DNA of 64,000 bases from Eledone cirrhosa (taxonomy: Eukaryota): positions 21,452,001 through 21,516,000 of the forward strand of contig OZ024741.1 of the NCBI GenBank assembly GCA_964016885.1, written 5' to 3'. The position numbers were made by a program, and so were the translations under genes. Positions 1 through 64,000 of the stretch are shown here, one piece after another (within the stretch, counting starts at the first letter, position 1; every line of letters starts with the position of its first letter). The notes under the pieces are model-generated. The model made no database searches. It was not told where the DNA came from and saw nothing but the letters and a program-made list of their open reading frames with translations.

Positions 1-3000
1 GATGATTAAGGGGGTGGAGGTGTTAACAGTGATGATAAAGGTGGTGGTGGTGTTAATAGTGATGATAATGGTGGTGGTGGCGTTAACAGTGATGATAATT
101 GTGGTGGTGGTGTTAACAGTTATGATATTGGTGGTGGTGGTGTTAATAGTGATGATAATGGTGGTGGTGGTGGTGTTAACAGTGATGATAATTGTGGTGG
201 TGGTGTTAATAGTGATGATAATGGTGGTTGTGGTGTTAATAGTGATGATAATGGTTGTGGTGGTGTTAACAGTGATGATAATGGTGGTGGTGGTGTTAAT
301 AGTGATGATAATGGTGGTGGTGGTGTTAACAGTGATGATATTGGTGGTGGTGGTGTTAATAGTGATGATAATGGTGGTGGTGGTGTTAACAGTGATGATA
401 ATGGTGGTGGTGGTGTCAATAGTGATGATAAAGGGGGTGGAGGTGTTAACAGTGATGATAAAGGTGGTGGTGGTGTTAATAGTGATGATAATGGGGGTGG
501 TGGTGTTAATAGTGATGATAATGGTGGTGGTGTTAACAGTGATGATAATGGTGGTGGAGGTGTTAATAGTGATGATAATGGTGGTGGTGGTGTTAATAGT
601 GATAATGGTGGTGGTGGTGGTGTTAACAGTGATGATAATGGTGGTGGTGGTGTTAATAGTGATGATAATGGTGGTGGTGGTCTTAATAGTGATGATAATG
701 GTGGTGGAGGTGTTAATAGTGATGATAATGGTGGTGGTAGTGTTAACAGTGATGATAATGGTGGTGGTGGTGTTAATAGGGATGATAATGGTGGTGGTGG
801 TGTTAATAGTGATGATAATGGTGGTGGTGGTGTTAATAGTGATGATAAAGGGGGTGGAGGTGTTAACAGTGATGATAATGGTGGTGGAGGTGTTAATAGT
901 GATGATAATGGTGGTGGTGTTAACAGTGATGATAATGGTGGTGGTGGTGTTAATAGTGATGATAATGGTGGTGGTGGTGTTAATAGTGATGATAAAGGGG
1001 GTGGAGGTGTTAACAGTGATGATAAAGGGGGTGGAGGTGTTAACAGTGATGATAATGGTCGTGGTGGTGTTAATAGTGATTATGGGGGTGGTGGTGTTAA
1101 CAGTGATGATAATAGTGGTGGTGGTGTTAATAGTGATGATAATGGGGGTGGTGGTGTTAATAATGATGATAATGGTGGTGGTGGTGTTAATAGTGATAAT
1201 GGGGGTGGTGGTGTTAACAGTGATGATAAAAGAGGTGGAGGTGTTAACAGTGATGATAATGGGGGTGGTGGTGTTAACAGTTATGATAATGGTGGTGGTG
1301 GTGTAAATAGTGATAATGGTGGTGGTGGTGTTAATAGTGATGATGGGGGTGGAGGTGTTAATAGTGATGATAAAAGGGGTGGAGGTGTTAATAGTGATGA
1401 TAATGGGGGCGGTGGTGTTAATAATGATGAAAATGGTGGTGGTGGTGTTAATAGTGATGATAATGGTGGTGGCGGTGTTAATAGTGATGATACAGGGGGT
1501 GGAGGTGTTAACAGTGATGATAATGGGGGTGGTGGTGTTAATAGTGATGATAATGGTGGTGGTGGTGTTAACAGTGATGATAATGGTGGTGGTGGTGTTA
1601 ATAGTGATGATAATGGTGGTGGTGTTAATAGTGATGATAATGGGGGCGGTGGTGTTAATAATGATGATAATGGTGGTGGGGGTGGTGGTGTTAACAGTGA
1701 TGATAAAGGGGGTGGAGGTGTTAACAGTGATGATAATGGTGGTGGTGGTGTTAATAGTGATAATGGGGGGGTGTTAACAGTGATGATAATGGTGGTGGTG
1801 GTGTTAACAGTTATGATAATGGTGGTGGTGGTGTTAATAGTGATGATAAAGGGGGTGGAGGTGTTAACAGTGATGATAATGGTGATAATGGTGGTGGTGT
1901 TAACAGTGATGATAATGGTGGTGGTGGTGTTAATAGTGATGATAATGGTGGTGGTGGTGTTAATAGTGATGATTAAGGGGGTGGAGGTGTTAACAGTGAT
2001 GATAAAGGTGGTGGTGGTGTTAATAGTGATTATAATGGGGGTGGTGGTGTTAATAGTGATGATAATGGGGGTGGTGGTGTTAATAGTGATGATAAAGGGG
2101 GTGGAGGAGTTAACAGTGATGATAATGGTGATAATGGTGGTGGTGTTAACAGTGATGATAATGGTGGTGGTGGTGTTAATAGTGATGATAATGGTGGTGG
2201 TGGTGTTAATAGTGATGATTAAGGGGGTGGAGGTGTTAACAGTGATGATAAAGGTGGTGGTGGTGTTAATAGTGATTATAATGGGGGTGGTGGTGTTAAT
2301 AGTGATGATAATGGGGGTGGTGGTGTTAATAGTGATGATAATGGTGGTGGTGGAGTTAATAGTGATAATGGTGGTGGTGGTGTTAATAGTGATGATAATG
2401 GTGGTGATGGTGTTAATAGTGATAATGGTGGTGGTGGTGTTAATAGTGATAATGGGGGTGGTGGTGTTAACAGTGATGATAAAGGGGGTGGAGGTGTTAA
2501 CAGTGATGATAATGGTGGTGGTGTTGTTAATAGTGATAATGGTGGTGGTGGTGTTAATAGAGATAATGGTGGTGGTGGTGTCAATAGTGATAATGGTGGT
2601 GTTGGTGTTAATAGTAATGATAATGGTGGTGGTGGTGTTAATAGTGATGATAATGGGGGTGGTGGTGTTAACAGTGATGATAAAGGGGGTGGAGGTGTTA
2701 ACAGTGGTGGTAATGGTGGTGGAGGTGTTAATAGTGATGATGATGGTGGTGGTGGTGTTAATAGTGATGATAATGGTGGTGGTGGTGGTGGTTGTGTTAA
2801 TAGTGATGATAATGGTGGTGGTGGTGTTAATAGTGATGATAAAGGGGGTGGAGGTGTTAACAGTGATGATAATGGGGGTGGTGGTGTTAATAGTGATAAT
2901 GGTGGTGGTGGTGTTAATAGTGATGATAAAGGGGGTGGAGGTGTTATCAGTGATGATAATGGTGGTGGTGGTGTTAATAGTGATTATAAAAGGGGTGGAG

Positions 3001-6000
3001 GTGTTAACAGTGATTTTAATAGGGGTGGTGGTGTTAACAGTGATGATAATGGGGGTGGTGGTGTTAACAGTTATGATAATGGTGGTGGTGGTGTAAATAG
3101 TGATAATGGTGGTGGTGGTGTTAATAGTGATAATGGGGGTGGAGGTGTTAACAGTGATGATAAAGGGGGTGGAGGTGTTAACAGTGATGATAATGGTCGT
3201 GGTGGTGTTAATAGTGATAATGGGGGTGGTGGTGTTAACAGTGATGATAATGGTGGTGGTGGTGTTAACAGTTATGATAATGGTGGTGGTGGTGTTAATA
3301 GTGATGATAATGGTGGTGGTGGTGTTAACAGTGATGATAATGGTGGTGGTGGTGTTAACAGTGATGATAATGGGGGTGGTGTTAACAGTGATGATAATGG
3401 TGGTGGTGGTGTTAATAGTGATGATAATGGTGGTGGTGTTAACAGTGATGATAATGGTGGTGGTGGTGTTAATAGTGATGATAATGGTGGTGGTGGTGTT
3501 AATAGTGATGATAAAGGGGATGGAGGTGTTAACAGTGATGATAATGGTGGTGGTGGTGTTAATAGTGATGATAATGGTGGTGGTGGTGTTAATAGTGATG
3601 ATAATGGTGGTGGTGGTGTTAATAGTGATAAAGGGGGTGGAGGTGTTAACAGTGATGATAATGGTGGTGGAGGTGTTAATAGTGATGATAATGGTGGTGG
3701 TGTTAACAGTGATGATAATGGTGGTGGTGGTGTTAATAGTGATGATAATGGTGGTGGTGGTGTTAATAGTGATGATAATGGTGGTGGTGGTGTTAATAGT
3801 GATGATAAAGGGGGTGGAGGTGTTAACAGTGATGATAAAGGTGGTGGTGGTGTTAATAGTGATGATAATGGGGGTGGTGGTGTTAATAGTGATGATAATG
3901 GGGGTGGTTGTGTTAATAGTGATGATAATGGTGGTGGTGGAGTTAATAGTGATAATGGTGGTGGTGGTGTTAATAGTGATGATAATGGTGTTGATGGTAT
4001 TAATAGTGATAATGGGGGTGGTGGTGTTAACAGTGATGATAAAGGGGGTGTAGGTGTTAACAGTGATGATAATGGTGGTGGTGTTATTAATAGTGATAAT
4101 GGTGGTGGTGTTAATAGTGATGATAATGGGGGCGGTGGTGTTAATAATGATGATAATGGTGGTGGTGGTGTTAATAGTGATAATGGGGGTGGTGGTGTTA
4201 ACAGTGATGATAAAAGGGGTGGAGATGTTAACAGTGATAATAATGGGGGTGGTGGTGTTAACAGTTATGATAATGGTGGTGGTGGTGTAAATAGTGATAA
4301 TGGTGGTGGTGGTGTTAATAGTGATAATGGGGGTGGAGGTGTTAACAGTGATAAAGGGGGTGGAGGTGTTAACAGTGATGATAATGGTGGTGGTGGTGTT
4401 AATAGTGATAATGGGGGTGGTGGTGTTAACAGTGATGATAATGGTGGTGGTGGTGTTAACAGTTATGATAATGGTGGTGGTGGTGTTAATAGTGATGATA
4501 AAGGGGGTGGAGGTGTTAACAGTGATGATAATGGGGGCGGTGGTGTTAATAATGATGATAATGGTGGTGGTGGTGTTAATAGTGATAATGGGGGTGGTGG
4601 TGTTAACAGTGATGATAATGGTGGTGGTGGTGTTAATAGTGATGATAATGGTGGTGGTGGTGTTAATAGTGATAATGGGGGTGGTGGTGTTAACAGTGAT
4701 GATAAAGGAGGTGGAGGTGTTAACAGTGATGATAATGGGGGTGGTGGTGTTAACAGTGGTGGTAATGGTGGTGGTGGTGTTAATAGTGATAATGGTGGTG
4801 GTTGTGTTAATAGTGATGATAATGGTGGTGGTGGTGTTAACAGTGATGATAAAGGGGGTGTAGGTGTTAACAGTGATGTTAATGGTGGTGGTGTTGTTAA
4901 TAGTGATAATGGTGGTGGTGATGTTAATAGAGATAATGGTGGTGGTGGTGTTAATAGTGATAATGGTGGTGGTGGTGTTAATAGTGATGATAATGGATGT
5001 GGTTGTGTTAATAGTGATGATAATGGGCGTGGTGGTGTTAACAGTGATGATAAAGGGGGTGGAGGTGTTAACAGTAATGATAATGGGGGTGGTGGTGTTA
5101 ATAGTGATAATGGTGGTTGTGGTGTTAATAGTGATAATGGTGGTGGTGGTGTTAATAGTGATGATAAAGGGGGTGGAGGTGTTAACAGTGATGATAATGG
5201 TGGTGGTGGTGTTAATAGTGATGATAATGGTGGTGGTGTTAATAGTGATGATAATGGGGGCGGTGGTGTTAATAATGATGATAATGGGGGTGGTGGTGTT
5301 AACAGTGATAATGGGGGTGGGGGTGTTAACGGTGATGATAAAAGGGGTGGAGGTGTTAACAGTGATGATAATGGGGGTGGTGGTGTTAATAGTGATGATA
5401 ATGGGGGTGGTGGTGTTAATAGTGATGATAATGGTGGTGGTGGAGTTAATAGTAATAATGGTGGTGGTGGTGTTAACAGTGATGATAATGGTGGTGGTGG
5501 TGTAAATAGTGATAATGGTGGTGGTGGTGTTAATAGTGATAATGGGGGTGGAGGTGTTAACAGTGATGATAAAGGGGGTGGAGGTGTTAACAGTGATGAT
5601 AATGTTCGTGGTGGTGTTAATAGTGATAATGGGGGGGGGCTGTTAACAGTGATAATGGTGGTGGTGGTGTTAATAGTGATGATAATGGTGGTGGTGGTGT
5701 TAATAGTGATAATGGGGGTGGTCGTGTTAACAGTGATGATAAAGGGGGTGGAGGTGTTAACAGTGATGATAATGGTGGTGGTGGTGTTAATAGTGATAAT
5801 GGGGGTGGTGGTGTTAACAGTGATGATAATGGTGGTGGTGGTGTTAACAGTTATGATAATGGTGGTGGTGGTGTTAATAGTGATGATAAAGGGGGTGGAG
5901 GTGTTAACAGTGATGATAATGGGGGCGGTGGTGTTAATAATGATGATAATGGTGGTGGTGGTGTTAATAGTGATAATGGGGGTGGTGGTGTTAACAGTGA

Positions 6001-9000
6001 TGATAAAGGGGGTGGAGGTGTTAACAGTGATGATAATGGTGGTGGTGGTGGTGTTAATAGTGATAATGGGGGTGGTGGTGTTAACAGTGATGATAATGGT
6101 GGTGGTGGTGTTAACAGTTATGATAATGGTGGTGGTGGTGTTAATAGTGATGATAAAGGGGGTGGAGGTGTTAACAGTGATGATAATGGTGGTGGTGGTG
6201 TTAATAGTGATAATGGGGGTGGTGCTGTTAACAGTGATGATAATGGTGGTGGTGGTGTTAACAGTTATGATAATGGTGGTGGTGGTGTTAATAGTGATGA
6301 TAAAGGGGGTGGAGGTGTTAACAGTGATGATAATGGGGGCGGTGGTGTTAATAATGATGATAATGGTGGTGGTGGTGTTAATAGTGATAATGGGGGTGGT
6401 GGTGTTAACAGTGATGATAATGGTGGTGGTGGTGTTAACAGTTATGATAATGGGGGGGGGTGTTAACAGTGATGATAAAGGGGGTGGAGGTGTTAACAGT
6501 GGTGGTAATGGTGGTGGTGGTGTTAATAGTGATAATGGTGGTGGTTGTGTTAATAGTGATAATGGTGGTGGTGATGTTAATAGAGATAATGGTGGTGGTG
6601 GTGTTAATAGTGATAATGGTGGTGGTGGTGTTAATAGTGATGATAATGGGGGTGGAGGTGTTAACAGTGATGATAATGGTGGTGGTGTTGTTAATAGTGA
6701 TAATGGTGGTGGTGATGTTAATAGAGATAATGGTGGTGGTGGTGTTAATAGTGATAATGGTGGTGGTGGTGTTAATAGTGATGATAATGGGGGTGGAGGT
6801 GTTAACAATGATGATAATGGTGGTGGTGGTGTTAACATTGATGATATTGGTGGTGGTGGTGTTAACAGTGATGATAATGGTGGTGCTGGTGTTAATAGTG
6901 ATAATACGGGTGGTGGTGTTAACAGTGATGATAAAGGAGGTGGAGGTGTTAACAGTGATGATAATGGGGGTGGTGGTGTTAATAGTGATGATAATGGTGG
7001 TGGTGTTAATAGTGATGATAATGGTGGTGGTTGTGTTAATAGTGATGATAATGGGGGGGGGGTGTTAACAGTGATGATAAAGGGGGTGGAGGTGTTAACA
7101 GTGGTGGTAATGGTGGTGGTGGTGTTAATAGTGATAATGGTGGTGGTTGTGTTAATAGTGATGATAATGGTGGTGGTGGTGTTAACAGTGATGATAAAGG
7201 GGGTGTAGGTGTTAACAGTGATGATAATGGTGGTGGTGTTGTTAATAGTGATAATGGTGGTGGTGATGTTAATAGAGATAATGGTGCTGGTGGTGTTAAT
7301 AGTGATAATGGTGGTGGTGGTGTTAATAGTGATAATGGATGTGGTTGTGTTAATAGTGATGATAATGGGGGTGGTGGTGTTAACAGTGATGATAAAGGGG
7401 GTGGAGGTGTTAACAGTAATGATAATGGGGGTGGTGGTGTTAATAGTGATAATGGTGGTTGTGGTGTTAATAGTGATAATGGTGGTGGTGGTGTTAATAG
7501 TGATGATAAAGGGGGTGGAGGTGTTAACAGTGATGATAATGGTGGTGGTGGTGTTAATAGTGATGATAATGGTGGTGGTGTTAATAGTGATGATAATGGG
7601 GGCGGTGGTGTTAATAATGATGATAATGGTGGTGGTGGTGTTAATAGTGATAATGGGGGTGGTGGTTTTAACGGTGATGATAAAAGGGGTGGAGGTGTTA
7701 ACAGTGATGATAATGGGGGTGGTGGTGTTAATAGTGATGATAATGGGGGTGGTGGTGTTAATAGTGATGATAATGGTGGTGGTGGAGTTAATAGTAATAA
7801 TGGTGGTGGTGGTGTTAACAGTGATGATAATGGTGGTGGTGGTGGTGTAAATAGTGATAATGGTGGTGGTGGTGTTAATAGTGATAATGGGGGTGGAGGT
7901 GTTAACAGTGATGATAAAGGGGGTGGAGGTGTTAACAGTGATGATAATGGTCGTGGTGGTGTTAATAGTGATAATGGGGGGGGGGCTGTTAACAGTGATA
8001 ATGGTGGTGGTGGTGTTAATAGTGATGATAATGGGGGCGGTGGTGTTAATAATGATGATAATGGTGGTGGTGGTGTTAATAGTGATAATGGGGGTGGTCG
8101 TGTTAACAGTGATGATAAAGGGGGTGGAGGTGTTAACAGTGATGATAATGGTGGTGGTGGTGTTAATAGTGATAATGGGGGTGGTGGTGTTAACAGTGAT
8201 GATAATGGTGGTGGTGGTGTTAACAGTTATGATAATGGTGGTGGTGGTGTTAATAGTGATGATAAAGGGGGTGGAGGTGTTAACAGTGATGATAATGGGG
8301 GCGGTGGTGTTAATAATGATGATAATGGTGGTGGTGGTGTTAATAGTGATAATGGGGGTGGTGGTGTTAACAGTGATGATAAAGGGGGTGGAGGTGTTAA
8401 CAGTGATGATAATGGTGGTGGTGGTGTTAACATTGATGATATTGGTGGTGGTGGTGTTAACAGTGATGATAATGGTGGTGCTGGTGTTAATAGTGATAAT
8501 ACGGGTGGTGGTGTTAACTGATGATAAAGGAGGTGGAGGTGTTAACAGTGATGATAATGGGGGTGGTGGTGTTAATAGTGATGATAATGGTGGTGGTGTT
8601 AATAGTGATGATAATGGTGGTGGTTGTGTTAATAGTGATGATAATGGGGGGGGGGTGTTAACAGTGATGATAAAGGGGGTGGAGGTGTTAACAGTGGTGG
8701 TAATGGTGGTGGTGGTGTTAATAGTGATAATGGTGGTGGTTGTGTTAATAGTGATGATAATGGTGGTGGTGGTGTTAACAGTGATGATAAAGGGGGTGTA
8801 GGTGTTAACAGTGATGATAATGGTGGTGGTGTTGTTAATAGTGATAATGGTGGTGGTGATGTTAATAGAGATAATGGTGCTGGTGGTGTTAATAGTGATA
8901 ATGGTGGTGGTGGTGTTAATAGTGATAATGGATGTGGTTGTGTTAATAGTGATGATAATGGGGGTGGTGGTGTTAACAGTGATGATAAAGGGGGTGGAGG

Positions 9001-12000
9001 TGTTAACAGTAATGATAATGGGGGTGGTGGTGTTAATAGTGATAATGGTGGTTGTGGTGTTAATAGTGATAATGGTGGTGGTGGTGTTAATAATGATGAT
9101 AAAGGGGGTGGAGGTGTTAACAGTGATGATAATGGTGGTGGTGGTGTTAATAGTGATGATAATGGTGGTGGTGTTAATAGTGATGATAATGGGGGCGGTG
9201 GTGTTAATAATGATGATAATGGTGGTGGTGGTGTTAATAGTGATAATGGGGGTGGTGGTTTTAACGGTGATGATAAAAGGGGTGGAGGTGTTAACAGTGA
9301 TGATAATGGGGGTGGTGGTGTTAATAGTGATGATAATGGGGGTGGTGGTGTTAATAGTGATGATAATGGTGGTGGTGGAGTTAATAGTAATAATGGTGGT
9401 GGTGGTGTTAACAGTGATGATAATGGTGGTGGTGGTGGTGTAAATAGTGATAATGGTGGTGGTGGTGTTAATAGTGATAATGGGGGTGGAGGTGTTAACA
9501 GTGATGATAAAGGGGGTGGAGGTGTTAACAGTGATGATAATGGTCGTGGTGGTGTTAATAGTGATAATGGGGGGGGGCTGTTAACAGTGATAATGGTGGT
9601 GGTGGTGTTAATAGTGATGATAATGGGGGCGGTGGTGTTAATAATGATGATAATGGTGGTGGTGGTGTTAATAGTGATAATGGGGGTGGTCGTGTTAACA
9701 GTGATGATAAAGGGGGTGGAGGTGTTAACAGTGATGATAATGGTGGTGGTGGTGTTAATAGTGATAATGGGGGTGGTGGTGTTAACAGTGATGATAATGG
9801 TGGTGGTGGTGTTAACAGTTATGATAATGGTGGTGGTGGTGTTAATAGTGATGATAAAGGGGGTGGAGGTGTTAACAGTGATGATAATGGGGGCGGTGGT
9901 GTTAATAATGATGATAATGGTGGTGGTGGTGTTAATAGTGATAATGGGGGTGGTGGTGTTAACAGTGATGATAAAGGGGGTGGAGGTGTTAACAGTGATG
10001 ATAATGGTGGTGGTGGTGGTGTTAATAGTGATAATGGGGGTGGTGGTGTTAACAGTGATGATAATGGTGGTGGTGGTGTTAACAGTTATGATAATGGTGG
10101 TGGTGGTGTTAATAGTGATGATAAAGGGGGTGGAGGTGTTAACAGTGATGATAATGGTGGTGGTGGTGTTAATAGTGATAATGGTGGTGGTGGTGTTAAT
10201 AGTGATGATAATGGGGGTGGAGGTGTTAACAGTGATGATAATGGTGGTGGTGGTGTTAATAGTGATAATAGGGGTGGTGGTGTTACAGTGATGATAATGG
10301 GGGTGGTGGTGTTAACAGTGATGATAAAGGGGGTGGAGGTGTTAACAGTGATGATAATGGGGGTGGTGGTGTTAATAGTGATAATGGTGGTTGTGGTGTT
10401 AATAGTGATAATGGTGGTGGTGGTGTTAATAGTGATGATAATGGTGGTGGTGGTGGTGTTAATAGTGATAATGGTGGTGGTGGTGTTAATAGTGATGATA
10501 AAGGGGGTGGTGGTGTTAACAGTGATGATAAAGGGGGTGGAGGTGTTAACAGTGATGATAATGGGGGGGGTGGTGTTAATAGTGATGATAATTGTGGTGG
10601 AGGTGTTAACAGTGACGATAATGGTGGTGGTGGTGTTAACAGTGATGATAATGGTGGTGGTGGTGTTAATAGTGATGATAAAGGGGGTGGAGGTGTTAAC
10701 AGTGATGATAATGGTGGTGGTGGTGTTAATAGTGATGATAATGGTGGTGGTGGTGTTAATAGTGATGATAATGGTGGTGGTGGTGTTAATAGTGATGATA
10801 AAGTGGGTGGAGGTGTTAACAGTGATGATAATGCTGGTGGTGGTGTTAATAGTGATAATGGGGGTGGTGGTGTTAACAGTGATGATAAAGGGGGTGGAGG
10901 TGTTAACAGTGATGATAATGGTGGTGGTGTTGTTAATAGTGATAATGGTGGTGGTGGTGTTAATAGAGATAATGGTGGTGGTGGTGTCAATAGTGATAAT
11001 GGTGGTGTTGGTGTTAATAGTAATGATAATGGTGGTGGTGGTGTTAATAGTGATGATAATGGGGGTGGTGGTGTTAACAGTGATGATAAAGGGGGTGGAG
11101 GTGTTAACAGTGGTGGTAATGGTGGTGGAGGTGTTAATAGTGATGATGATGGTGGTGGTGGTGTTAATAGTGATGATAATGGTGGTGGTGGTGGTGGTTG
11201 TGTTAATAGTGATGATAATGGTGGTGGTGGTGTTAATAGTGATGATAAAGGGGGTGGAGGTGTTATCAGTGATGATAATGGTGGTGGTGGTGTTAATAGT
11301 GATTATAAAAGGGGTGGAGGTGTTAACAGTGATTTTAATAGGGGTGGTGGTGTTAACAGTGATGATAATGGGGGTGGTGGTGTTAACAGTTATGATAATA
11401 GTGGTGGTGGTGTAAATAGTGATAATGGTGGTGGTGGTGTTAATAGTGATAATGGGGGTGGAGGTGTTAACAGTGATGATAAAGGGGGTGGAGGTGTTAA
11501 CAGTGATGATAATGGTCGTGGTGGTGTTAATAGTGATAATGGGGGTGGTGGTGTTAACAGTGATGATAATGGTGGTGGTGGTGTTAACAGTTATGATAAT
11601 GGTGGTGGTGGTGTTAATAGTGATGATAATGGTGGTGGTGGTGTTAACAGTGATGATAATGGTGGTGGTGGTGTTAACAGTGATGATAATGGGGGTGGTG
11701 TTAACAGTGATGATAATGGTGGTGGTGGTGTTAATAGTGATGATAATGGTGGTGGTGTTAACAGTGATGATAATGGTGGTGGTGGTGTTAATAGTGATGA
11801 TAATGGTGGTGGTGGTGTTAATAGTGATGATAAAGGGGATGGAGGTGTTAACAGTGATGATAATGGTGGTGGTGGTGTTAATAGTGATGATAATGGTGGT
11901 GGTGGTGTTAATAGTGATGATAATGGTGGTGGTGGTGTTAATAGTGATAAAGGGGGTGGAGGTGTTAACAGTGATGATAATGGTGGTGGAGGTGTTAATA

Positions 12001-36927: not shown

Positions 36928-36947
36928 ATCATCATCATCATCATCAT
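36928..36947 (+). repeat. (ATC)6-7 microsatellite
   Basis: ATCATCATCATCATCATCAT is directly visible. Confidence 0.9.
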
Positions 36948-37080
36948 TATCAACTATGGCACCATTGTTGTTATTTAAAATCTCCATTACCATAATTATC
37001 TTCTAGTCAAATGTTTGATAATACATAATTAACATACCAGCTAAGATAACATCATACTGAAGTTTTTAAAAAATACAACA

Positions 37081-37488
37081 ATCATTCACATTATCATCTT
37101 CACATTTATGTTTGTTTTTCCCTGCTTGCACGAGTTTGACAGGTCCTTTTCAGCACAGCATCTAGCCACTGTTTTCTGCTCTGCCTTTAAAATCGTGTGT
37201 TAATTGGTAACATGTACCATCCTTTCTCTGAGGGTTTTGTGTGTCCATACAGTCATTAGAAGCTAGAGACACCCTCATTCTCTTGATCTAATGAAACACT
37301 CAGGATGTGGCAGCTGGAAGGAGGACAGAGGGTTCCAGCAGCACTGGAAGGGTACTTTGTTTTTATAAATCTCTCCACTTGTCACGGTCCTTTGTCATCT
37401 CCTCCGTAAGCTTCGGCAATCTGAGGTCTGCTCTCACCACCTCCGCCCATGTTTTTCGTGGTCTTATACTTGTGAGTTCCATTCCTGG
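37081..37488 (-). mobile_element. 5'-truncated RTE-like LINE 3' fragment (ORF C-terminus plus probable 3' UTR)
   Basis: Minus-strand 37464-37363 translates to RPRKTWAEVVRADLRLPKLTEEMTKDRDKWRDL*, matching the characteristic RTE-clade C-terminal pattern GRPxxTWxxxVxxDL...DRxxWR. The left boundary at the decayed CAT-rich tail near 37081 is approximate. Confidence 0.78.
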
Positions 37489-52400: not shown

Positions 52401-55400
52401 CAACCAAGACACTTTATTACATGTTGTGTTTTCTACCAAGACACTTTACTACATGTTGCTTTCTCAACCATGACACTTTATTACATGTTATGTTCTCAAC
52501 CAAGGTACTTTAATACATGTGTTCTCAAGCAAGACACTTTGTTACATGTGTTCACAAGCAAGACACTTTATTACATGTGTTCTCAACCAAGGCACTTTAT
52601 TACATGTTGTGTTCTCAACCAAGACACTCTATTACATGTTGTGTTCTCAACCAAGACACTTTATTACATGTTATGTTCTCAACCAAGACACTTTATTACA
52701 TGTGTTCTCAAGCAAGACACTTCATTACATGTGTTCTCAAGCAAGACACTTTATTACATGTGTTCTCAAGCAAGACACTTTGTTACATGTGTTCTCAAGC
52801 AAGACACTTTATTACATGTGTTCTCAACCAAGGCACTTTATTACATGTTGTGTTCTCAACCAAGACACTTTATTACATGTGTTCTCAAGCATGACACTTT
52901 ACTACATGTTGTGTTCTCAATCATGACACTTTATTACATGTTGTGTTCTCAACCAAGACACTTCATTACATGTTATGTTCTCAACCATGAGACTTTATTA
53001 CATGTGTTCTCAACCATGACACTTTACTACATGTGTTATCAATCATGACACTTTATTACATGTTGTTCTCAACCAAGACTCTTTATTACATGTTGTGTTC
53101 TCAACCAAGGCACTTTATTACATGTTATGTTCTCAACAAAGACATTTTATTACATGTGTTCTCAACCAAGACACTTTATTACATGTTGTGTTCTCAACGA
53201 AGACACTTTATTACATGTGTTCTCAACCAAGACAATTTATTATATGTGTTCTCAACCAAGACACTTTATTACATGTTATGTTCTCAACCAAGACACTTTA
53301 TTACATGGGTTCTCAAGCAAGACACTTTATTACATGTTATGTTCTCAACCAAGGTACTTTAATACATGTGTTCTCAAGCAAGACACTTTGTTACATGTGT
53401 TCACAAGCAAGACACTTTATTACATGTGTTCTCAACCAAGGCACTTTATTACATGTTGTGTTCTCAACCAAGACACTTTATTACATGTTGTGTTCTCAAC
53501 CAAGACACTTTATTACATGTTATGTTCTCAACCAAGACACTTTATTACATGTGTTCTCAACCAAGACACTTTATTACATGTTGTGTTCTCAAGCAATACA
53601 TTTATTACATGTGTTCTCAACCAAGACACTTTTTTACATGTTATGTTCTCAACCAAGACACTTTATTACATGTGTTCTCTACCAAGACACTTTACTACAT
53701 GTTGTGTTCTCAACCATGACACTTTATTACATGTTATGTTCTCAACCAAGACACTTCATTACATGTGTTCTCAAGCAAGACACTTTATTACATGTGTTCT
53801 CAACCAAGACTCTTTATTATATGTTATGTTCTCAACCATGACACTTTATTACATGTGTTCTCAAGCATGACACTTTACTACATGTTGTGTTCTCAATCAT
53901 GACACTTTATTACATGTTATGTTCTCAACCAAGACACTTTATTACATGTGTTCTCAAGCAAGACACTTTATTACATGTTGTGTTCTCAACCAAGACACTT
54001 CATTACATGTTATGTTCTCAACCATGACACTTTATTACATGTGTTCTCAACCATGACACTTTACTACATGTGTTCTCAATCATGACACTTTATTACATGT
54101 TATGTTCTCAACCAAGACACTTTATTACATGTTGTGTTCTCAACCAAGACACTTTATTACATGTTATGTTCTCAACAAAGACATTTTATTACATGTGTTC
54201 TCAACCAAGACACTTTATTACATGTTGTGTTCTCAACCAAGACACTTTATTACATGTGTTCTCGACCAAGACACTTTATTACATGTGTTCTCAACCAAGA
54301 CACTTTATTACATGTTGTGTTCTCAACCATGACACTTTATTACATGTTGTGTTCTCAACCAAGACACTTTATTACATGTTATGTTCTCAATCAAGACACT
54401 TTATTACATGTCTTCTCAAGCAAGACACTTTATTACATATGTTCTCAACCAAGACACTTTATTACATGTTATGTTCTCAACCAAGACACTTTATTACATG
54501 TGTTCTTAACCAAGACACTTTATTACATGTGTTCTCAACCATGACACTTTATTACATGTTGTGTTCTCAACCAAGACACTTTATTATATGGTGTGTTCTC
54601 AAACAAGACACTTTATTACATGTTGTGTTCTCAACCAAGCCACTTTATTACATGTTATGTTCTCAACCAAGACACTTTATTACATGTTATGTTCTCAACC
54701 ATGACACTTTATTACATGTTGTGTTCTCAACCATGACACTTTATTACATGTTGTGTTCTCAACCATGACACTTTATTACATTTTGTCTTCTCAACCATGA
54801 TACTTTATTACATGTTGTGTTCTCAACCAAGACACTTTATTACATGTTGTGTTCTCAACCAAGACACTTTATTACATGTTGTGTTTTCTACCAAGACACT
54901 TTACTACATGTTGCTTTCTCAACCATGACACTTTATTACATGTTATGTTCTCAACCAAGGTACTTTAATACATGTGTTCTCAAGCAAGACACTTTGTTAC
55001 ATGTGTTCACAAGCAAGACACTTTATTACATGTGTTCTCAACCAAGGCACTTTATTACATGTTGTGTTCTCAACCAAGACACTCTATTACATGTTGTGTT
55101 CTCAACCAAGACACTTTATTACATGTTATGTTCTCAACCAAGACACTTTATTACATGTGTTCTCAACCAAGACACTTTATTACATGTTGTGTTCTCAACC
55201 AAGACACTTTATTACATGTGTTCTCTACCAAGACACTTTACTACATGTTGTGTTCTCAACCATGACACTTTATTACATGTTATGTTCTCAACCAAGACAC
55301 TTCATTACATGTGTTCTCAAGCAAGACACTTTATTACATGTGTTCTCAACCAAGACTCTTTATTATATGTTATGTTCTCAACCATGACACTTTATTACAT

Positions 55401-58400
55401 GTGTTCTCAAGCATGACACTTTACTACATGTTGTGTTCTCAATCATGACACTTTATTACATGTTATGTTCTCAACCAAGACACTTTATTACATGTGTTCT
55501 CAAGCAAGACACTTTATTACATGTTGTGTTCTCAACCAAGACACTTCATTACATGTTATGTTCTCAACCATGACACTTTATTACATGTGTTCTCAACCAT
55601 GACACTTTACTACATGTGTTCTCAATCATGACACTTTATTACATGTTATGTTCTCAACCAAGACACTTTATTACATGTTGTGTTCTCAACCAAGACACTT
55701 TATTACATGTTATGTTCTCAACAAAGACATTTTATTACATGTGTTCTCAACCAAGACACTTTATTACATGTTGTGTTCTCAACCAAGACACTTTATTACA
55801 TGTGTTCTCGACCAAGACACTTTATTACATGTGTTCTCAACCAAGACACTTTATTACATGTTGTGTTCTCAACCATGACACTTTATTACATGTTGTGTTC
55901 TCAACCAAGACACTTTATTACATGTTATGTTCTCAACCAAGACACTTTATTACATGTCTTCTCAAGCAAGACACTTTATTACATATGTTCTCAACCAAGA
56001 CACTTTATTACATGTTATGTTCTCAACCAAGACACTTTATTATATGGTGTGTTTTCAAACAAGACACTTTATTACATGTTGTGTTCTCAACCAAGCCACT
56101 TTATTACATGTTATGTTCTCAACCAAGACACTTTATTACATGTTATGTTCTCAACCATGACACTTTATTACATGTTGTGTTCTCAACCATGACACTTTAT
56201 TACATGTTGTGTTCTCAACCATGACACTTTATTACATTTTGTCTTCTCAACCATGATACTTTATTACATGTTGTGTTCTCAACCAAGACACTTTATTACA
56301 TGTGTTCTCAACCAAGACACTTTATTACATGTTGTGTTTTCTACCAAGACACTTTACTACATGTTGCTTTCTCAACCATGACACTTTATTACATGTTATG
56401 TTCTCAACCAAGACACTTTGTTACATGTGTGCTCAAGCAAGACACTTTATTACATGTTATGTTCTCAACCATGACACTTTACTACATGTGTTCTCAACCA
56501 TGACACTTCATTACATTTTGTCTTCTCAACCATGATACTTTATTACATGTTGTGTTCTCAACCATGACACTTTATTATATGTGTTCTCAACCAAGACACT
56601 TTATTACGTGTTCTCAACCAAGACACTTTATTACATGTTATGTTCTCAACCAAGACAATTTATTACATGTTGTGTTCTCAACCAAGACACTTTACTACAT
56701 GTGTTTTCAACCATGACACTTTATTACATGTGTTCTCAACCAAGACACTTTATTACATGTTATGTTCTACACCATGACACTTTATTACATGTTGTGTTCT
56801 CAACCAAGACACTTTATTACATGTTGTGTTCTCAAGCAACACACTTTATTACATGTGTTCTCAACCAAGACACTTTATTACAAGTGTTCTCAACCATGAC
56901 ACTTTATTACATGTGTTCTCAACTAATACACTTTATTACATGTTGTGTTCTCAACCAAGACACTTTATTACATGTGTTCTCAAGCAAGACACTTCATTAC
57001 ATGTGTTCTCAAGCAAGACACTTTATTACATGTGTTCTCAAGCAAGACACTTTGTTACATGTGTTCTCAAGCAAGACACTTTATTACATGTGTTCTCAAC
57101 CAAGGCACTTTATTACATGTTGTGTTCTCAACCAAGACACTTTATTACATGTGTTCTCAAGCATGACACTTTACTACATGTTGTGTTCTCAATCATGACA
57201 CTTTATTACATGTTATGTTCTCAACCAAGACACTTTATTACATGTGTTCTCAAGCAAGACACTTTATTACATGTTGTGTTCTCAACCAAGACACTTCATT
57301 ACATGTTATGTTCTCAACCATGAGACTTTATTACATGTGTTCTCAACCATGACACTTTACTACATGTGTTATCAATCATGACACTTTATTACATGTTATG
57401 TTCTCAACCAAGACTCTTTATTACATGTTGTGTTCTCAACCAAGGCACTTTATTACATGTTATGTTCTCAACAAAGACATTTTATTACATGTGTTCTCAA
57501 CCAAGACACTTTATTACATGTTGTGTTCTCAACGAAGACAATTTATTACATGTGTTCTCAACCAAGACACTTTATTACATGTTATGTTCTCAACCAAGAC
57601 ACTTTATTACATGGGTTCTCAAGCAAGACACTTTATTACATGTTATGTTCTCAACCAAGGTACTTTAATACATGTGTTCTCAAGCAAGACACTTTGTTAC
57701 ATGTGTTCACAAGCAAGACACTTTATTACATGTGTTCTCAACCAAGGCACTTTATTACATGTTGTGTTCTCAACCAAGACACTTTATTACATGTTGTGTT
57801 CTCAACCAAGACACTTTATTACATGTTATGTTCTCAACCAAGACACTTTATTACATGTGTTCTCAACCAAGACACTTTATTACATGTTGTGTTCTCAAGC
57901 AATACATTTATTACATGTGTTCTCAACCAAGACACTTTTTTACATGTTATGTTCTCAACCAAGACACTTTATTACATGTGTTCTCTACCAAGACACTTTA
58001 CTACATGTTGTGTTCTCAACCATGACACTTTATTACATGTTATGATCTCAACCAAGACACTTCATTACATGTGTTCTCAAGCAAGACACTTTATTACATG
58101 TGTTCTCAACCAAGACTCTTTATTATATGTTATGTTCTCAACCATGACACTTTATTACATGTGTTCTCAAGCATGACACTTTACTACATGTTGTGTTCTC
58201 AATCATGACACTTTATTACATGTTATGTTCTCAACCAAGACACTTTATTACATGTGTTCTCAAGCAAGACACTTTATTACATGTTGTGTTCTCAACCAAG
58301 ACACTTCATTACATGTTATGTTCTCAACCATGACACTTTATTACATGTGTTCTCAACCATGACACTTTACTACATGTGTTCTCAATCATGACACTTTATT

Positions 58401-61400
58401 ACATGTTATGTTCTCAACCAAGACACTTTATTACATGTTGTGTTCTCAACCAAGACACTTTATTACATGTTATGTTCTCAACAAAGACATTTTATTACAT
58501 GTGTTCTCAACCAAGACACTTTATTACATGTTGTGTTCTCAACCAAGACACTTTATTACATGTGTTCTCGACCAAGACACTTTCTTACATGTGTTCTCAA
58601 CCAAGACACTTTATTACATGTTGTGTTCTCAACCATGACACTTTATTACATGTTGTGTTCTCAACCAAGACACTTTATTACATGTCTTCTCAAGCAAGAC
58701 ACTTTATTACATATGTTCTCAACCAAGACACTTTATTACATGTTATGTTCTCAACCAAGACACTTTATTACATGTGTTCTCAACCAAGACACTTTATTAC
58801 ATGTGTTCTCAACCATGACACTTTATTACATGTTATTTTCTCAACCAAGCCACTTTATTACATGGTGTGTTCTCAAACAAGACACTTTATTACATGTTGT
58901 GTTCTCAACCAAGCCACTTTATTACATGTTATGTTCTCAACCAAGACACTTTATTACATGTTATGTTCTCAACCATGACACTTTATTACATGTTGTGTTC
59001 TCAACCATGACACTTTATTACATTTTGTCTTCTCAACCATGATACTTTATTACATGTTGTGTTCTCAACCAAGACACTTTATTACATGTTGTGTTCTCAA
59101 CCAAGACACTTTATAACATGTTGTGTTTTCTACCAAGACACTTTACTACATGTTGCTTTCTCAACCATGACACTTTATTACATGTTATGTTCTCAACCAA
59201 GACACTTTGTTACATGTGTGCTCAAGCAAGACACTTTATTACATGTGTTCTCAACCAAGACACTTTATTACATGTTATGTTCTCAACCATGACACTTTAC
59301 TACATGTTGTGTTCTCAATCATGACACTTCATTACATTTTGTCTTCTCAACCATGATACTTTATTACATGTTGTGTTCTCAACCAAGACACTTTATTATA
59401 TGTGTTCTCAACCAAGACACTTTATTACGTGTTCTCAACCAAGACACTTTATTACATGTTATGTTCTCAACCAAGACAATTTATTACATGTTGTGTTCTC
59501 AACCAAGACACTTTACTACATGTGTTTTCAACCATGACACTTCATTACATTTTGTCTTCTCAACCATGATACTTTATTACATGTTGTGTTCTCAACCAAG
59601 ACACTTTATTATATGTGTTCTCAACCAAGACACTTTATTACATGTGTTCTCAACCAAGACACTTTATTACATGTTATGTTCTACACCATGACACTTTATT
59701 ACATGTTGTGTTCTCAACCAAGACACTTTATTACATGTTGTGTTCTCAAGCAACACACTTTATTACATGTGTTCTCAACCAAGACACTTTATTACAAGTG
59801 TTCTCAACCATGACACTTTATTACATGTGTTCTCAACTAATACACTTTATTACATGTTGTGTTCTCAACCAAGACACTTTATTACATGTGTTCTCAAGCA
59901 AGACACTTCATTACATGTGTTCTCAAGCAAGACACTTTATTACATGTGTTCTCAAGCAAGACACTTTGTTACATGTGTTCTCAAGCAAGACACTTTATTA
60001 CATGTGTTCTCAACCAAGGCACTTTATTACATGTTGTGTTCTCAACCAAGACACTTTATTACATGTGTTCTCAAGCATGACACTTTACTACATGTTGTGT
60101 TCTCAATCATGACACTTTATTACATGTTATGTTCTCAACCAAGACACTTTATTACATGTGTTCTCAAGCAAGACACTTTATTACATGTTGTGTTCTCAAC
60201 CAAGACACTTCATTACATGTTATGTTCTCAACCATGAGACTTTATTACATGTGTTCTCAACCATGACACTTTACTACATGTGTTATCAATCATGACACTT
60301 TATTACATGTTATGTTCTCAACCAAGACTCTTTATTACATGTTGTGTTCTCAACCAAGGCACTTTATTACATGTTATGTTCTCAACAAAGACATTTTATT
60401 ACATGTGTTCTCAACCAAGACACTTTATTACATGTTGTGTTCTCAACGAAGACACTTTATTACATGTGTTCTCAACCAAGACAATTTATTACATGTGTTC
60501 TCAACCAAGACACTTTATTACATGTTATGTTCTCAACCAAGACACTTTATTACATGGGTTCTCAAGCAAGACACTTTATTACATGTTATGTTCTCAACCA
60601 AGGTACTTTAATACATGTGTTCTCAAGCAAGACACTTTGTTACATGTGTTCACAAGCAAGACACTTTATTACATGTGTTCTCAACCAAGGCACTTTATTA
60701 CATGTTGTGTTCTCAACCAAGACACTTTATTACATGTTGTGTTCTCAACCAAGACACTTTATTACATGTTATGTTCTCAACCAAGACACTTTATTACATG
60801 TGTTCTCAACCAAGACCTTTTATTACATGTTGTGTTCTCAAGCAATACATTTATTACATGTGTTCTCAACCAAGACACTTTTTTACATGTTATGTTCTCA
60901 ACCAAGACACTTTATTACATGTGTTCTCTACCAAGACACTTTACTACATGTTGTGTTCTCAACCATGACACTTTATTACATGTTATGTTCTCAACCAAGA
61001 CACTTCATTACATGTGTTCTCAAGCAAGACACTTTATTACATGTGTTCTCAACCAAGACTCTTTATTATATGTTATGTTCTCAACCATGACACTTTATTA
61101 CATGTGTTCTCAAGCATGACACTTTACTACATGTGTTCTCAATCATGACACTTTATTACATGTTATGTTCTCAACCAAGACACTTTATTACATGTGTTCT
61201 CAAGCAAGACACTTTATTACATGTTGTGTTCTCAACCAAGACACTTCATTACATGTTATGTTCTCAACCATGACACTTTATTACATGTGTTCTCAACCAT
61301 GACACTTTACTACATGTGTTCTCAATCATGACACTTTATTACATGTTATGTTCTCAACCAAGACACTTTATTACATGTTGTGTTCTCAACCAAGACACTT

Positions 61401-64000
61401 TATTACATGTTATGTTCTCAACAAAGACATTTTATTACATGTGTTCTCAACCAAGACACTTTATTACATGTTGTGTTCTCAACCAAGACACTTTATTACA
61501 TGTGTTCTCGACCAAGACACTTTATTACATGTGTTCTCAACCAAGACACTTTATTACATGTTGTGTTCTCAACCATGACACTTTATTACATGTTGTGTTC
61601 TCAACCAAGACACTTTATTACATGTTATGTTCTCAACCAAGACACTTTATTACATGTCTTCTCAAGCAAGACACTTTATTACATATGTTCTCAACCAAGA
61701 CACTTTATTACATGTTATGTTCTCAACCAAGACACTTTATTACATGTGTTCTTAACCAAGACACTTTATTACATGTGTTCTCAACCATGACACTTTATTA
61801 CATGTTATTTTCTCAACCAAGCCACTTTATTATATGGTGTGTTCTCAAACAAGACACTTTATTACATGTGTTCTCAACCAAGCCACTTTATTACATGTTA
61901 TGTTCTCAACCAAGACACTTTATTACATGTTATGTTCTCAACCATGACACTTTATTACATGTTGTGTTCTCAACCATGACACTTTATTACATGTTGTGTT
62001 CTCAACCATGACACTTTATTACATTTTGTCTTCTCAACCATGATACTTTATTACATGTTGTGTTCTCAACCAAGACACTTTATTACATGTTGTGTTCTCA
62101 ACCAAGACACTTTATTACATGTGTTTTCTACCAAGACACTTTACTACATGTTGCTTTCTCAACCATGACACTTTATTACATGTTATGTTCTCAACCAAGA
62201 CACTTTGTTACATGTGTGCTCAAGCAAGACACTTTATTACATGTGTTCTCAACCAAGACACTTTATTACATGTTATGTTCTCAACCATGACACTTTACTA
62301 CATGTGTTCTCAACCATGACACTTCATTACATTTTGTCTTCTCAACCATGATACTTTATTAGATGTTGTGTTCTCAACCATGACACTTTATTATATGTGT
62401 TCTCAACCAAGACACTTTATTACGTGTTCTCAACCAAGACACTTTATTACATGTTATGTTCTCAACCAAGACAATTTATTACATGTGTTCTCAACCAAGA
62501 CACTTTACTACATGTGTTTTCAACCATGACACTTTATTACATGTGTTCTCAACCAAGACACTTTATTACATGTTATGTTCTACACCATGACACTTTATTA
62601 CATGTTGTGTTCTCAACCAAGACACTTTATTACATGTTGTGTTCTCAAGCAACACACTTTATTACATGTGTTCTCAACCAAGACACTTTATTACAAGTGT
62701 TCTCAACCATGACACTTTATTACATGTGTTCTCAACTAATACACTTTATTACATGTTGTGTTCTCAACCAAGACACTTTATTACATGTGTTCTCAAGCAA
62801 GACACTTCATTACATGTGTTCTCAAGCAAGACACTTTATTACATGTGTTCTCAAGCAAGACACTTTGTTACATGTGTTCTCAAGCAAGACACTTTATTAC
62901 ATGTGTTCTCAACCAAGGCACTTTATTACATGTTGTGTTCTCAACCAAGACACTTTATTACATGTGTTCTCAAGCATGACACTTTACTACATGTTGTGTT
63001 CTCAATCATGACACTTTATTACATGTTATGTTCTCAACCAAGACACTTTATTACATGTGTTCTCAAGCAAGACACTTTATTACATGTTGTGTTCTCAACC
63101 AAGACACTTCATTACATGTTATGTTCTCAACCATGAGACTTTATTACATGTGTTCTCAACCATGACACTTTACTACATGTGTTATCAATCATGACACTTT
63201 ATTACATGTTGTTCTCAACCAAGACTCTTTATTACATGTTGTGTTCTCAACCAAGGCACTTTATTACATGTTATGTTCTCAACAAAGACATTTTATTACA
63301 TGTGTTCTCAACCAAGACACTTTATTACATGTTGTGTTGTCAACGAAGACACTTTATTACATGTGTTCTCAACCAAGACAATTTATTATATGTGTTCTCA
63401 ACCAAGACACTTTATTACATGTTATGTTCTCAACCAAGACACTTTATTACATGGGTTCTCAAGCAAGACACTTTATTACATGTTATGTTCTCAACCAAGG
63501 TACTTTAATACATGTGTTCTCAAGCAAGACACTTTGTTACATGTGTTCACAAGCAAGACACTTTATTACATGTGTTCTCAACCAAGGCACTTTATTACAT
63601 GTTGTGTTCTCAACCAAGACACTTTATTACATGTTGTGTTCTCAACCAAGACACTTTATTACATGTTATGTTCTCAACCAAGACACTTTATTACATGTGT
63701 TCTCAACCAAGACACTTTATTACATGTTGTGTTCTCAAGCAATACATTTATTACATGTGTTCTCAACCAAGACACTTTTTTACATGTTATGTTCTCAACC
63801 AAGACACTTTATTACATGTGTTCTCTACCAAGACACTTTACTACATGTTGTGTTCTCAACCATGACACTTTATTACATGTTATGTTCTCAACCAAGACAC
63901 TTCATTACATGTGTTCTCAAGCAAGACACTTTATTACATGTGTTCTCAACCAAGACTCTTTATTATATGTTATGTTCTCAACCATGACACTTTATTACAT
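37489..64000 (+). repeat. Satellite array C: AT-rich 29-bp unit CATGTGTTCTCAACCAAGACACTTTATTA and 32-bp variants (+TGT or +TAT); roughly 870 units; runs off the right edge
   Basis: Directly visible head-to-tail repetition without spacers. Recurrent variants include AAGCAAG, CCATGAC, AATCATG and AAGGTACTTTAATAC. Unit count is estimated as length divided by about 30.4. Confidence 0.99.

What the first reader, a model, noticed from the sequence alone, without database searches (positions are those of the whole stretch)
1..64000. Ribosome-biogenesis gene (NOC3L) threaded through two giant satellite introns
Seen: only 182 bp of coding sequence lies in 64 kb, as two clean, in-frame, stop-free exons between satellite blocks of at least 35.7 kb and at least 26.5 kb. 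Known: Noc3/NOC3L is a conserved housekeeping factor for 60S biogenesis, and satellite-filled giant introns are best known from Drosophila Y-linked fertility genes. Inference: here a broadly expressed gene would have to be transcribed and spliced through tens of kb of homogeneous satellite. That would make the arrays constitutively transcribed, single-strand satellite RNA rather than silent heterochromatin. This is the best candidate for an undescribed phenomenon in the window, although I cannot establish novelty.
Basis: partly seen in the sequence, partly recalled or inferred. Interest (0 to 1): 0.75.

Follow-up and report, generated by a model that had tools for sequence, protein, structure and literature searches.

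The report
Octopod NOC3L with repeat-swollen introns
In an octopus-type genome, an intact single-copy gene for ribosome assembly (NOC3L) has two introns of 60,000 and 49,000 bases, each filled by a tandem repeat whose exact probe occurs nowhere else in the assembly; this is one case of a wider swelling of repeats near the ends of the largest chromosomes, likely tolerated runaway growth that would be transcribed and spliced out rather than a control device.

Summary
Confirmed. The two exons belong to an intact, single-copy NOC3L of an octopod (19 exons mapped, all introns GT-AG, 85% identical to Octopus vulgaris NOC3L). The flanking introns are 60,276 and 49,079 bp, with gap-free arrays of 58.2 kb (30-mer) and 48.3 kb (32-mer). 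Exact probes hit only these introns (44/44, 315/315). The arrays grew by recent kb-scale duplications and end 43 and 45 nt before the acceptors.

NOC3L is not special. A probe placed without regard to genes fell in a 30-kb array inside a citron-kinase intron. Within 30 Mb of scaffold ends, 21 of 47 probes are at least half such arrays, against 1 of 33 inside (cut-off chosen afterwards). Nine chaperonin genes carry none. The scan's earlier notes report the same in six other genes of this genome.

The closest print precedent is avian intron 'sequence stuttering'. Here it is AT-rich, about tenfold larger, and shows no exon copying in NOC3L. The best reading is tolerated local repeat growth in distal domains. 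Transcription is inferred, not measured. A splice-donor strand-bias prediction failed.

The parts
1..35697 (+). Array A: distal 35.7 kb of a 58,213-bp array of a 27-30-nt G/T-rich, triplet-built unit that fills 97% of a 60,276-bp NOC3L intron
   Evidence: GC skew about +0.92; exact 52-nt probe 44 of 44 hits inside this array
35698..35740 (+). 43-nt acceptor region (pyrimidine tract and AG); the array runs right up to it, and its unit carries a branch-point-like YTRAY word
   Evidence: branch-point role is inferred from a recalled consensus
35741..35821 (+). NOC3L coding exon (11th of the 19 mapped), 81 bp, phase 0/0
   Evidence: 93% identical to O. vulgaris NOC3L residues 439-466
35822..36618 (+). 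797-bp GT-AG intron with a 20-mer minisatellite (35835-36188, starting about a dozen nt after the donor; again 36440-36553) and a ~250-bp high-copy SINE-like element (about 36190-36440)
   Evidence: (4,782 candidate places, 40 scored)
36619..36719 (+). NOC3L coding exon (12th of the 19 mapped), 101 bp, phase 0/2
36720..37488 (+). First 769 nt of the 49,079-bp intron, including a very high-copy interspersed stretch near 37300-37470
37489..64000 (+). Array B: proximal 26.5 kb of a 48,265-bp array of a 29/32-nt unit that fills 98% of the intron and ends 45 nt before the next acceptor; AATAAA occurs 0 times on the sense strand and 1,264 times on the antisense strand
   Evidence: exact 30-nt probe 315 of 315 genome hits inside this array

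Best explanation
This is an intact, single-copy octopod NOC3L gene in which two introns each hold their own tandem array of about 50-60 kb, likely grown in place from a short local minisatellite and predicted to be transcribed and spliced out as ordinary intron. Shown: the gene structure, the array sizes in the assembly, the privacy of the exact probes, nested kb-scale duplications inside the arrays, and enrichment of such arrays near the ends of the five largest scaffolds. Inferred steps: (1) a short repeat seeds from local intron sequence (microsatellite-like or a piece of a dispersed element), often next to an exon. (2) Unequal exchange or gene conversion between misaligned copies duplicates blocks of 1-10 kb again and again. 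(3) This is most active in the distal ~30 Mb of very large chromosomes, where crossovers likely concentrate. (4) Selection removes only events that touch exons or splice signals, so arrays stop about 40-50 nt before acceptors, and the only cost is about 106 kb of extra transcription (27-106 min at a recalled 1-4 kb/min).
For: Intact frame: 727 aa plus stop over 19 exons, 18 of 18 introns GT-AG, 619 of 728 columns identical to O. vulgaris NOC3L. Single locus: 17 of 18 genome matches lie in order at C2:21.41-21.55 Mb, and the 18th is E 0.64. Private units. Different units in different introns: among 38 units only one pair of separate small arrays was identical and one pair weakly alike. Recent block duplication: exact twins of 5,459 bp (A) and 3,704 bp (B). 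An exact twin of at least 300 bp exists for 40 of 58 and 39 of 48 sampled points, and it is short or absent at the array ends. Same build in citron kinase: 22 of 47 mapped introns hold an array, several of 5-30 kb. Position: at least half complex array in 21 of 47 probes within 30 Mb of an end against 1 of 33 inside; Spearman -0.41, p 1.7e-4 over 80 probes. Seven of 9 probes inside two end-proximal motor-gene intervals on C1 and C3 were wholly array, each with a different unit. Arrays sit near exon edges: 15 of 29 in the outer quarter, KS p 0.003. Read-derived contigs show array B at roughly 500-1,500 times flank depth and bridge its end to the next exon.
Against: No recombination map, second haplotype or related genome was available, so the driver (meiotic exchange) and polymorphism are untested. 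Distal position is not sufficient: 0 of 5 probes within 30 Mb of the ends of C6-C9 held arrays. Long introns of end-proximal kinesin-like genes on C12 and C15 held no large array in 9 of 9 probes. A myosin-like gene at C2:19 Mb spans only about 27 kb, and nine chaperonin genes, some near ends, have 0-5% tandem repeat. The 30-Mb cut-off was chosen after seeing the data, and the second 40 probes were aimed at ends. Not all small arrays are private: the 48-mer in NOC3L intron 16 hits 54 other fetched loci, and array A's unit resembles other triplet-rich repeats at 70-81%. The edge bias could partly come from later element insertions on one side of an array.
Confidence: 0.65

Rival explanations
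1. The same anatomy, but growth is driven by replication or transcription stress (slippage, template switching, G4 or R-loop repair) in somatic-type repair, not by meiotic exchange.
For: Array A is extremely G-skewed on the sense strand with 1,577 two-tier G4-like motifs. Variable-length nested duplications also fit template switching. Hron et al. list this as one of two options (PMC12954441, Discussion).
Against: Array B is C-skewed and AT-rich. Sense-strand GC skew has both signs in similar numbers among the 39 arrays listed, and only 2 three-tier G4 motifs occur in A. It does not by itself explain the distal enrichment.
Confidence: 0.17
2. The arrays are real but much shorter, and the assembler inflated them with false duplications.
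For: A perfect 5,459-bp twin in A and a perfect 3,704-bp twin in B could be false duplications. No listed contig bridges the array A-exon or array B-start junction. The three runs are one sample, perhaps the source of the assembly.
Against: No gaps. Many unique variants make the arrays resolvable (22,313 singleton 200-mers among 58,014 in A). Summed contig depth over array B is 500-1,500 times the flanks, the same order as 1,573 assembled copies (the tool warns that depth is no copy number). Contigs of two runs bridge array B's end to the next exon. There is no such check for array A.
Confidence: 0.08
3. The giant introns are a selected device, as proposed for Drosophila Y-loop genes: a transcription timer, or a repeat RNA scaffold tied to nucleolar function.
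For: Satellite-filled giant introns are transcribed and need dedicated RNA-binding proteins in Drosophila (PMC6508621, abstract only). Neither large array has AATAAA on the sense strand.
Against: Units differ from intron to intron and gene to gene. The trait follows chromosome position rather than gene class, and equally large arrays lie outside the mapped neighbouring genes.
Confidence: 0.06
4. The arrays are outposts of a classical dispersed satellite family, or were delivered whole by mobile elements.
For: Array A's left flank and the 48-mer and 61-mer small arrays match dispersed high-copy sequence (34, 54 and 16 other fetched loci).
Against: Exact probes of both giant arrays hit nowhere else in 3.0 Gb. 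Array B's unit has only 2 short weak hits among the other fetched loci. Elements may supply seeds, but the amplification is local.
Confidence: 0.03
5. The two exons are an orphan duplicate, and a compact working NOC3L lies elsewhere.
For: The genome search used a stricter first look and can miss weak matches. The CBF family also hits two intronless genes elsewhere.
Against: All other exons flank the window in order with an open frame. NOC3p passes its cut-off only here. The two intronless CBF genes were not matched by O. vulgaris NOC3L and are likely other CBF-family members.
Confidence: 0.01

Closest known systems
Avian 'sequence stuttering' on chicken dot chromosomes (Hron et al. 2026, PMC12954441; abstract, first part of Results section 7, first part of section 8, and the Discussion read)
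   Same: Each intron holds its own locally expanded repeat of tens of bases, exons stay intact, the trait is confined to a chromosomal compartment, intergenic DNA is affected too, and the mechanism is open.
   Different: Here the arrays reach 20-110+ kb (their worked example intron is 1.6-2.9 kb), are AT-rich (34-42% GC) rather than GC-rich, lie at the ends of 135-443 Mb scaffolds rather than on tiny chromosomes, coexist with interspersed repeats, and show no exon-edge copying in NOC3L. Length polymorphism is untested.
Human subtelomeric VNTR enrichment (Linthorst et al. 2020, PMC7608644; abstract and one Discussion section read)
   Same: Minisatellites with units over 15 bp are enriched near chromosome ends, lie inside genes, and are ascribed to faulty meiotic recombination or repair.
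   Different: The human zone is 5 Mb and the enriched VNTRs are over 60% GC. Here the zone is about 30 Mb and sampled DNA in it is about 43% array.
Drosophila Y-loop intron gigantism, kl-3 and kl-5 (Fingerhut et al. 2019, PMC6508621; abstract only)
   Same: Coding exons are islands in tandem repeat, and the polymerase must cross the arrays.
   Different: Those introns hold megabases of simple satellite in testis-specific Y genes with a dedicated expression programme. Here the introns are 50-60 kb of private 30-32-nt units in a ribosome-assembly gene.
NOC3L / Noc3 (Pfam PF07540 NOC3p plus PF03914 CBF); O. vulgaris protein P0003
   Same: 85% identity over the full length, same domains.
   Different: No difference seen in the protein; the O. 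vulgaris intron lengths could not be read.

Membership tests
NOC3L orthologue | NOC3p plus CBF domains in one protein, full-length similarity to NOC3L | tested here: met
   NOC3p exon upstream and CBF exons downstream on the same strand; 619 of 728 columns identical to P0003, which carries both domains
NOC3L orthologue | Intact reading frame with canonical splice sites, single locus | tested here: met
   18 of 18 introns GT-AG, 727 aa plus stop; one locus. The likely 12-nt ATG exon 1.9 kb upstream has a weak-looking GT donor
Avian-type sequence stuttering | Introns filled with locally born repeats, isolated intron by intron, exons untouched | tested here: met
   7 of 18 NOC3L and 22 of 47 citron-kinase introns hold arrays of at least 300 bp, nearly all with different units; exact probes private
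Avian-type sequence stuttering | Extensive length variation between individuals | not testable with these tools
   Only one sample's contigs were listed; no second haplotype of the island was found
Avian-type sequence stuttering | Occasional copying of exon edges into the intron | tested here: not met
   No hit of 30 bits or more in 38 exon-versus-flank comparisons for NOC3L; best 27.4 bits against 26.5 shuffled. The citron-kinase gene was not tested, and the feature is occasional in birds too
Avian-type sequence stuttering | GC-rich setting devoid of interspersed repeats | tested here: not met
   Arrays 42% and 34% GC; high-copy interspersed elements in the same introns
Drosophila Y-loop intron gigantism | Megabase introns of simple satellite | tested here: not met
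   60 and 49 kb introns with 30-32-nt units
Drosophila Y-loop intron gigantism | Transcribed satellite bound by dedicated RNA-binding proteins in a timed programme | not testable with these tools
   Needs RNA and cytology
Classical satellite DNA family | One unit shared by arrays at several loci | tested here: not met
   44 of 44 and 315 of 315 exact hits in one intron each; only exact probes were run genome-wide

The most novel reading that the evidence does not exclude
This octopod carries an invertebrate, AT-rich and roughly tenfold larger counterpart of avian sequence stuttering. In the outer ~30 Mb of its giant chromosomes, nearly half the DNA is made of one-off minisatellite arrays of tens to over a hundred kb, many inside introns of essential genes. 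Chromosome-end position (likely crossover concentration on very large chromosomes), and not high GC, would then be the common cause. Only units that lack sense-strand poly(A) signals may be free to grow inside genes.
Probability: 0.45. Interest if true: 0.72.

Novelty: new variant of a known kind. Interest (0 to 1): 0.5.

Why it matters
It separates two explanations for intron-private repeat growth that are confounded in birds, high GC versus recombination-rich chromosomal position, because here the arrays are AT-rich and sit at the ends of very large chromosomes. It shows that a conserved ribosome-assembly gene can be stretched from about 37 kb to 144 kb by two arrays with no visible damage to the protein. 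That makes it a natural test bed for how splicing and termination cope with long repeat introns outside testis-specific genes. In practice such introns break gene models and short-read assemblies in cephalopods, and they may account for a sizeable share of genome size. NOC3L itself is one example among many, which limits the interest of this window alone.

Tried and rejected
No RNA holder listed for the exon island; this says nothing on expression. Pfam did not identify either short exon alone (one weak INTS7_N hit, E 0.027). Array A as a giant coding exon: all six frames have stop-free runs of 1,372-1,705 codons because the unit is triplet-built, none spans the array, and O. vulgaris NOC3L has no insert there; rejected. 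Exon stuttering in NOC3L: not found. Strand filter on splice donors: in NOC3L and citron kinase, GTRAG in at least 30% of units was sense 1, antisense 3 among 35 non-simple arrays. I wrote the prediction down beforehand, and the new probes gave sense 2, antisense 0; rejected. Strand filter on AATAAA: sense 0, antisense 2 independent arrays (four rows, three of them one array). The new arrays had it on neither strand in 30% of units, nor did 23 unoriented arrays; inconclusive. Recursive-splice motifs: no pyrimidine tract plus YAG and no AG-GTRAG in either giant array on the sense strand. The idea that the neighbouring 50-kb and 111-kb arrays lie in the adjacent genes: the octopine-dehydrogenase-like and phosphoserine-aminotransferase-like coding regions end before them, so their host, if any, is unknown. 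The prediction that all long end-proximal genes are array-filled failed for C12 and C15 and for an interior C4 gene (0 of 11 probes with a large array). One homolog search with the citron-kinase PH exon found nothing; a second tool did. In one search, one citron row (5,565 bp) merges two different 48-mers across a probably missed exon and should not be counted as a large array; citron exon edges are approximate. Literature: nine searches listed no paper on intronic minisatellite arrays in cephalopods. Term searches in three cephalopod papers (PMC13282606, first third also read; 10.1101/2025.08.29.672809; PMC12682272) found no such description. Passages of PMC11602149 added nothing specific. 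Supplements were not read, bioRxiv supplements are closed, and subscription journals are not covered, so a prior mention may exist.
Full report
Observation. The window holds a 30-mer array at 1-35697 and a 32-mer array at 37489-64000. Between them lie two exons with canonical splice sites, 35741-35821 and 36619-36719. The window is G000:C2:21,452,001-21,516,000 in a 3.0-Gb assembly; C2 is 416 Mb long.

The gene. A NOC3p-domain exon lies 37 kb upstream and CBF-domain exons 26-29 kb downstream on the same strand. The upstream exon's best hit is Octopus vulgaris NOC3L at 87%, then mussels at 62%, so the host is an octopod. Mapping that protein on 264 kb around the window gave 19 exons from 21,408,786 to 21,550,779. 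All 18 introns are GT-AG, and the frame is open for 727 residues to a stop, with 619 of 728 columns identical. A 12-nt ATG exon at 21,406,846 would supply the same first four residues as in O. vulgaris (inferred). A genome-wide search with the protein put 17 of 18 matches at this locus, the other at E 0.64 (a stricter first look was used). The orphan-fragment reading is therefore refuted within the assembly.

The introns. The two giant introns are 60,276 bp (97% tandem repeat, one 58,213-bp array) and 49,079 bp (98%, one 48,265-bp array). The arrays end 43 and 45 nt before the acceptors. There is no N in the 264 kb. Without the two arrays the gene would span 37 kb instead of 144 kb. Five smaller introns hold their own arrays of 0.8-2.7 kb with units of 27, 39, 43, 173 and 48 nt. 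Exact probes of the giant arrays hit only their own intron: 315 of 315 and 44 of 44. Privacy is not absolute for seeds: the 48-mer matches dispersed sequence in 54 other fetched loci, and array A resembles other triplet-rich repeats at 70-81% (215 loci, 1.9 Mb, the gene's own loci left out).

How the arrays grew. Units are only 85-87% alike, yet kb-scale blocks are identical. The longest exact twins are 5,459 bp (shift 5,630) in A and 3,704 bp (shift 6,790) in B, with many other shifts from 1.2 to 20 kb. Exact twins of 300 bp or more cover 40 of 58 and 39 of 48 sampled points and fade at the array ends. This fits an older short minisatellite enlarged recently by repeated block duplication (inference).

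Are the lengths real? Three runs of one sample hold the island as contigs. Summed depth over the start of array B is about 500-1,500 times that of the unique flanks, against 1,573 assembled copies. The tool warns that this is no copy number, so I take it only as the right order. Contigs of two runs bridge the end of array B to the next exon, with 58 and 32 letters in the array. Array A was skipped by the tool and has no such check.

How special is NOC3L? Forty evenly spaced 10-kb probes were 28% tandem repeat, and 3 lay wholly in one array. I followed two of these three. One is a 57-mer array of at least 110 kb on C1. The other is a 30.3-kb 26-mer array inside an intron of a citron-kinase-like gene on C5. 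That gene spans at least 383 kb. In the part fetched, 22 of 47 mapped introns hold arrays, including 30.3, 25.6, about 23 (with a 200-N gap), 9.2, 9.0, 6.4 and 5.3 kb. Around NOC3L itself lie further arrays of at least 111, 50, 12 and 11 kb. In contrast, nine multi-exon chaperonin genes span about 6-31 kb and are 0-5% tandem repeat with no array of 400 bp.

Position. With 40 more probes aimed at scaffold ends, complex arrays made up on average 0.43 of 47 probes within 30 Mb of an end and 0.05 of 33 interior probes. At least half array: 21 of 47 against 1 of 33; Spearman -0.41, p 1.7e-4. The cut-off is post hoc. The effect came from C1-C5 only; 5 probes on C6-C9 had none. Among kinesin and myosin genes (spans read by hand from the tables), four of the five domain intervals over 100 kb lie within 6 Mb of an end. 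Probing all five, 7 of 9 probes in the C1 and C3 intervals were wholly array with different units, and 0 of 11 in the C12, C15 and interior C4 genes held a large array. The C1 and C3 intervals rest on two exon hits each and may not be single genes.

Constraints on the arrays. Arrays lie nearer exon edges than uniform placement predicts (15 of 29 in the outer quarter, KS p 0.003), though later insertions could mimic this. No exon sequence is copied into NOC3L introns. Neither giant array has AATAAA or a pyrimidine-tract acceptor on the sense strand, while array B has 1,264 AATAAA on the antisense strand. At the level of independent units this is only 0 against 2, and a donor-site version of the idea failed a prediction written beforehand.

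Mechanism. The most likely reading (0.65) is tolerated local growth. A seed arises in an intron, is amplified by unequal exchange or conversion in kb blocks, most often in the distal zones of very large chromosomes, and is bounded by selection on exons and splice signals. Because this is the only NOC3L found and the protein is conserved, the arrays would be transcribed on one strand and removed by splicing; that is inference, as is the recombination driver. Rivals are replication or transcription stress (0.17), assembly inflation (0.08), a selected timer or scaffold (0.06), a dispersed satellite family (0.03) and an orphan copy (0.01).

Comparison with what is known. It works like avian sequence stuttering (PMC12954441; abstract, parts of two Results sections and the Discussion read). 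That paper was a lead from the scan's earlier notes. The case meets the intron-private-repeat feature, fails GC-richness and exon copying (NOC3L only), and cannot be tested for polymorphism, so I do not file it as a member. It also resembles human subtelomeric VNTR enrichment (PMC7608644; abstract and one section). It differs from Drosophila Y-loop gigantism (PMC6508621; abstract) in scale, repeat type and gene class. My nine searches and term look-ups in three cephalopod genome papers found no description in cephalopods (69, 79, 80); supplements were not seen. The scan's unreviewed notes report the same build in SRA1, LHPP, unc79, APLF, ABCB and REXO5-like genes of this genome. I did not check those loci, and they are not counted as support.

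Verdict. Real, a new variant of a known kind, and genome-wide rather than peculiar to NOC3L. Interest 0.5.

Noticed in passing
G000:C2:21,252,001-21,363,225 (L076-L085, L016-L017): A 53-mer array of at least 111 kb, 95% homogeneous, about 10 kb beyond the last exon of a phosphoserine-aminotransferase-like gene; host gene, if any, unknown.
   Followed up: partly
G000:C2 about 21,373,100-21,390,400, minus strand (L018-L019): Compact multi-exon phosphoserine-aminotransferase-like gene, head to head with NOC3L, with small intronic arrays; named from recalled motifs and a weak PF00266 hit, E 0.156.
   Followed up: partly
G000:C2:21,672,555-21,675,202, minus strand (L091): Two-exon octopine-dehydrogenase-like gene (82-90% identical to O. 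vulgaris) sitting between a 50-kb 88-mer array and an 11-kb 37-mer array.
   Followed up: partly
L030:3357-3629, plus strand: Open stretch that looks like the C-terminal part of a nicotinamidase/isochorismatase-type enzyme (recalled likeness, not searched).
   Followed up: no
G000:C5:9.98-10.36 Mb, minus strand: Citron-kinase-like gene of at least 383 kb with many intron-private arrays up to 30 kb; a 23.6-kb array follows the last mapped exon and a GTAAG donor, and the final short exon was not located.
   Followed up: yes
G000:C1:14.95-15.06 Mb (L096-L105, L036): A 57-mer array of at least 110 kb; neither end reached.
   Followed up: partly
window 37489-64000 and G000:C5:10,112,011-10,135,606: Array B and a 54-mer citron-kinase array both carry AATAAA in nearly every unit, on the antisense strand only; too few cases to call a rule.
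   Followed up: yes
window 1-35697: Array A is built of triplets, so all six frames stay open for over 1,300 codons in places; the sense strand is strongly G-skewed and could favour R-loops (inference).
   Followed up: partly
G000:C2:21,438,056-21,449,144 (upstream of the window): A perfect 5,459-bp tandem twin inside array A: either a very recent duplication or a false duplication by the assembler.
   Followed up: no
L064 (C4:205 Mb) and L067 (C4:330 Mb): Interior probes filled with degenerate ~12-mer repeats (57-63% matches), a different class from the distal arrays.
   Followed up: no
L034-L035, L109, L017, L155: A 61-mer tandem unit recurs almost identically at several loci on C2 and C5, so it is carried by a dispersed element.
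   Followed up: partly
G000:C2:101.28 Mb and C1:352.38 Mb (L012, L013): Two intronless CBF-domain genes, likely other CBF-family ribosome factors and not NOC3L copies.
   Followed up: no
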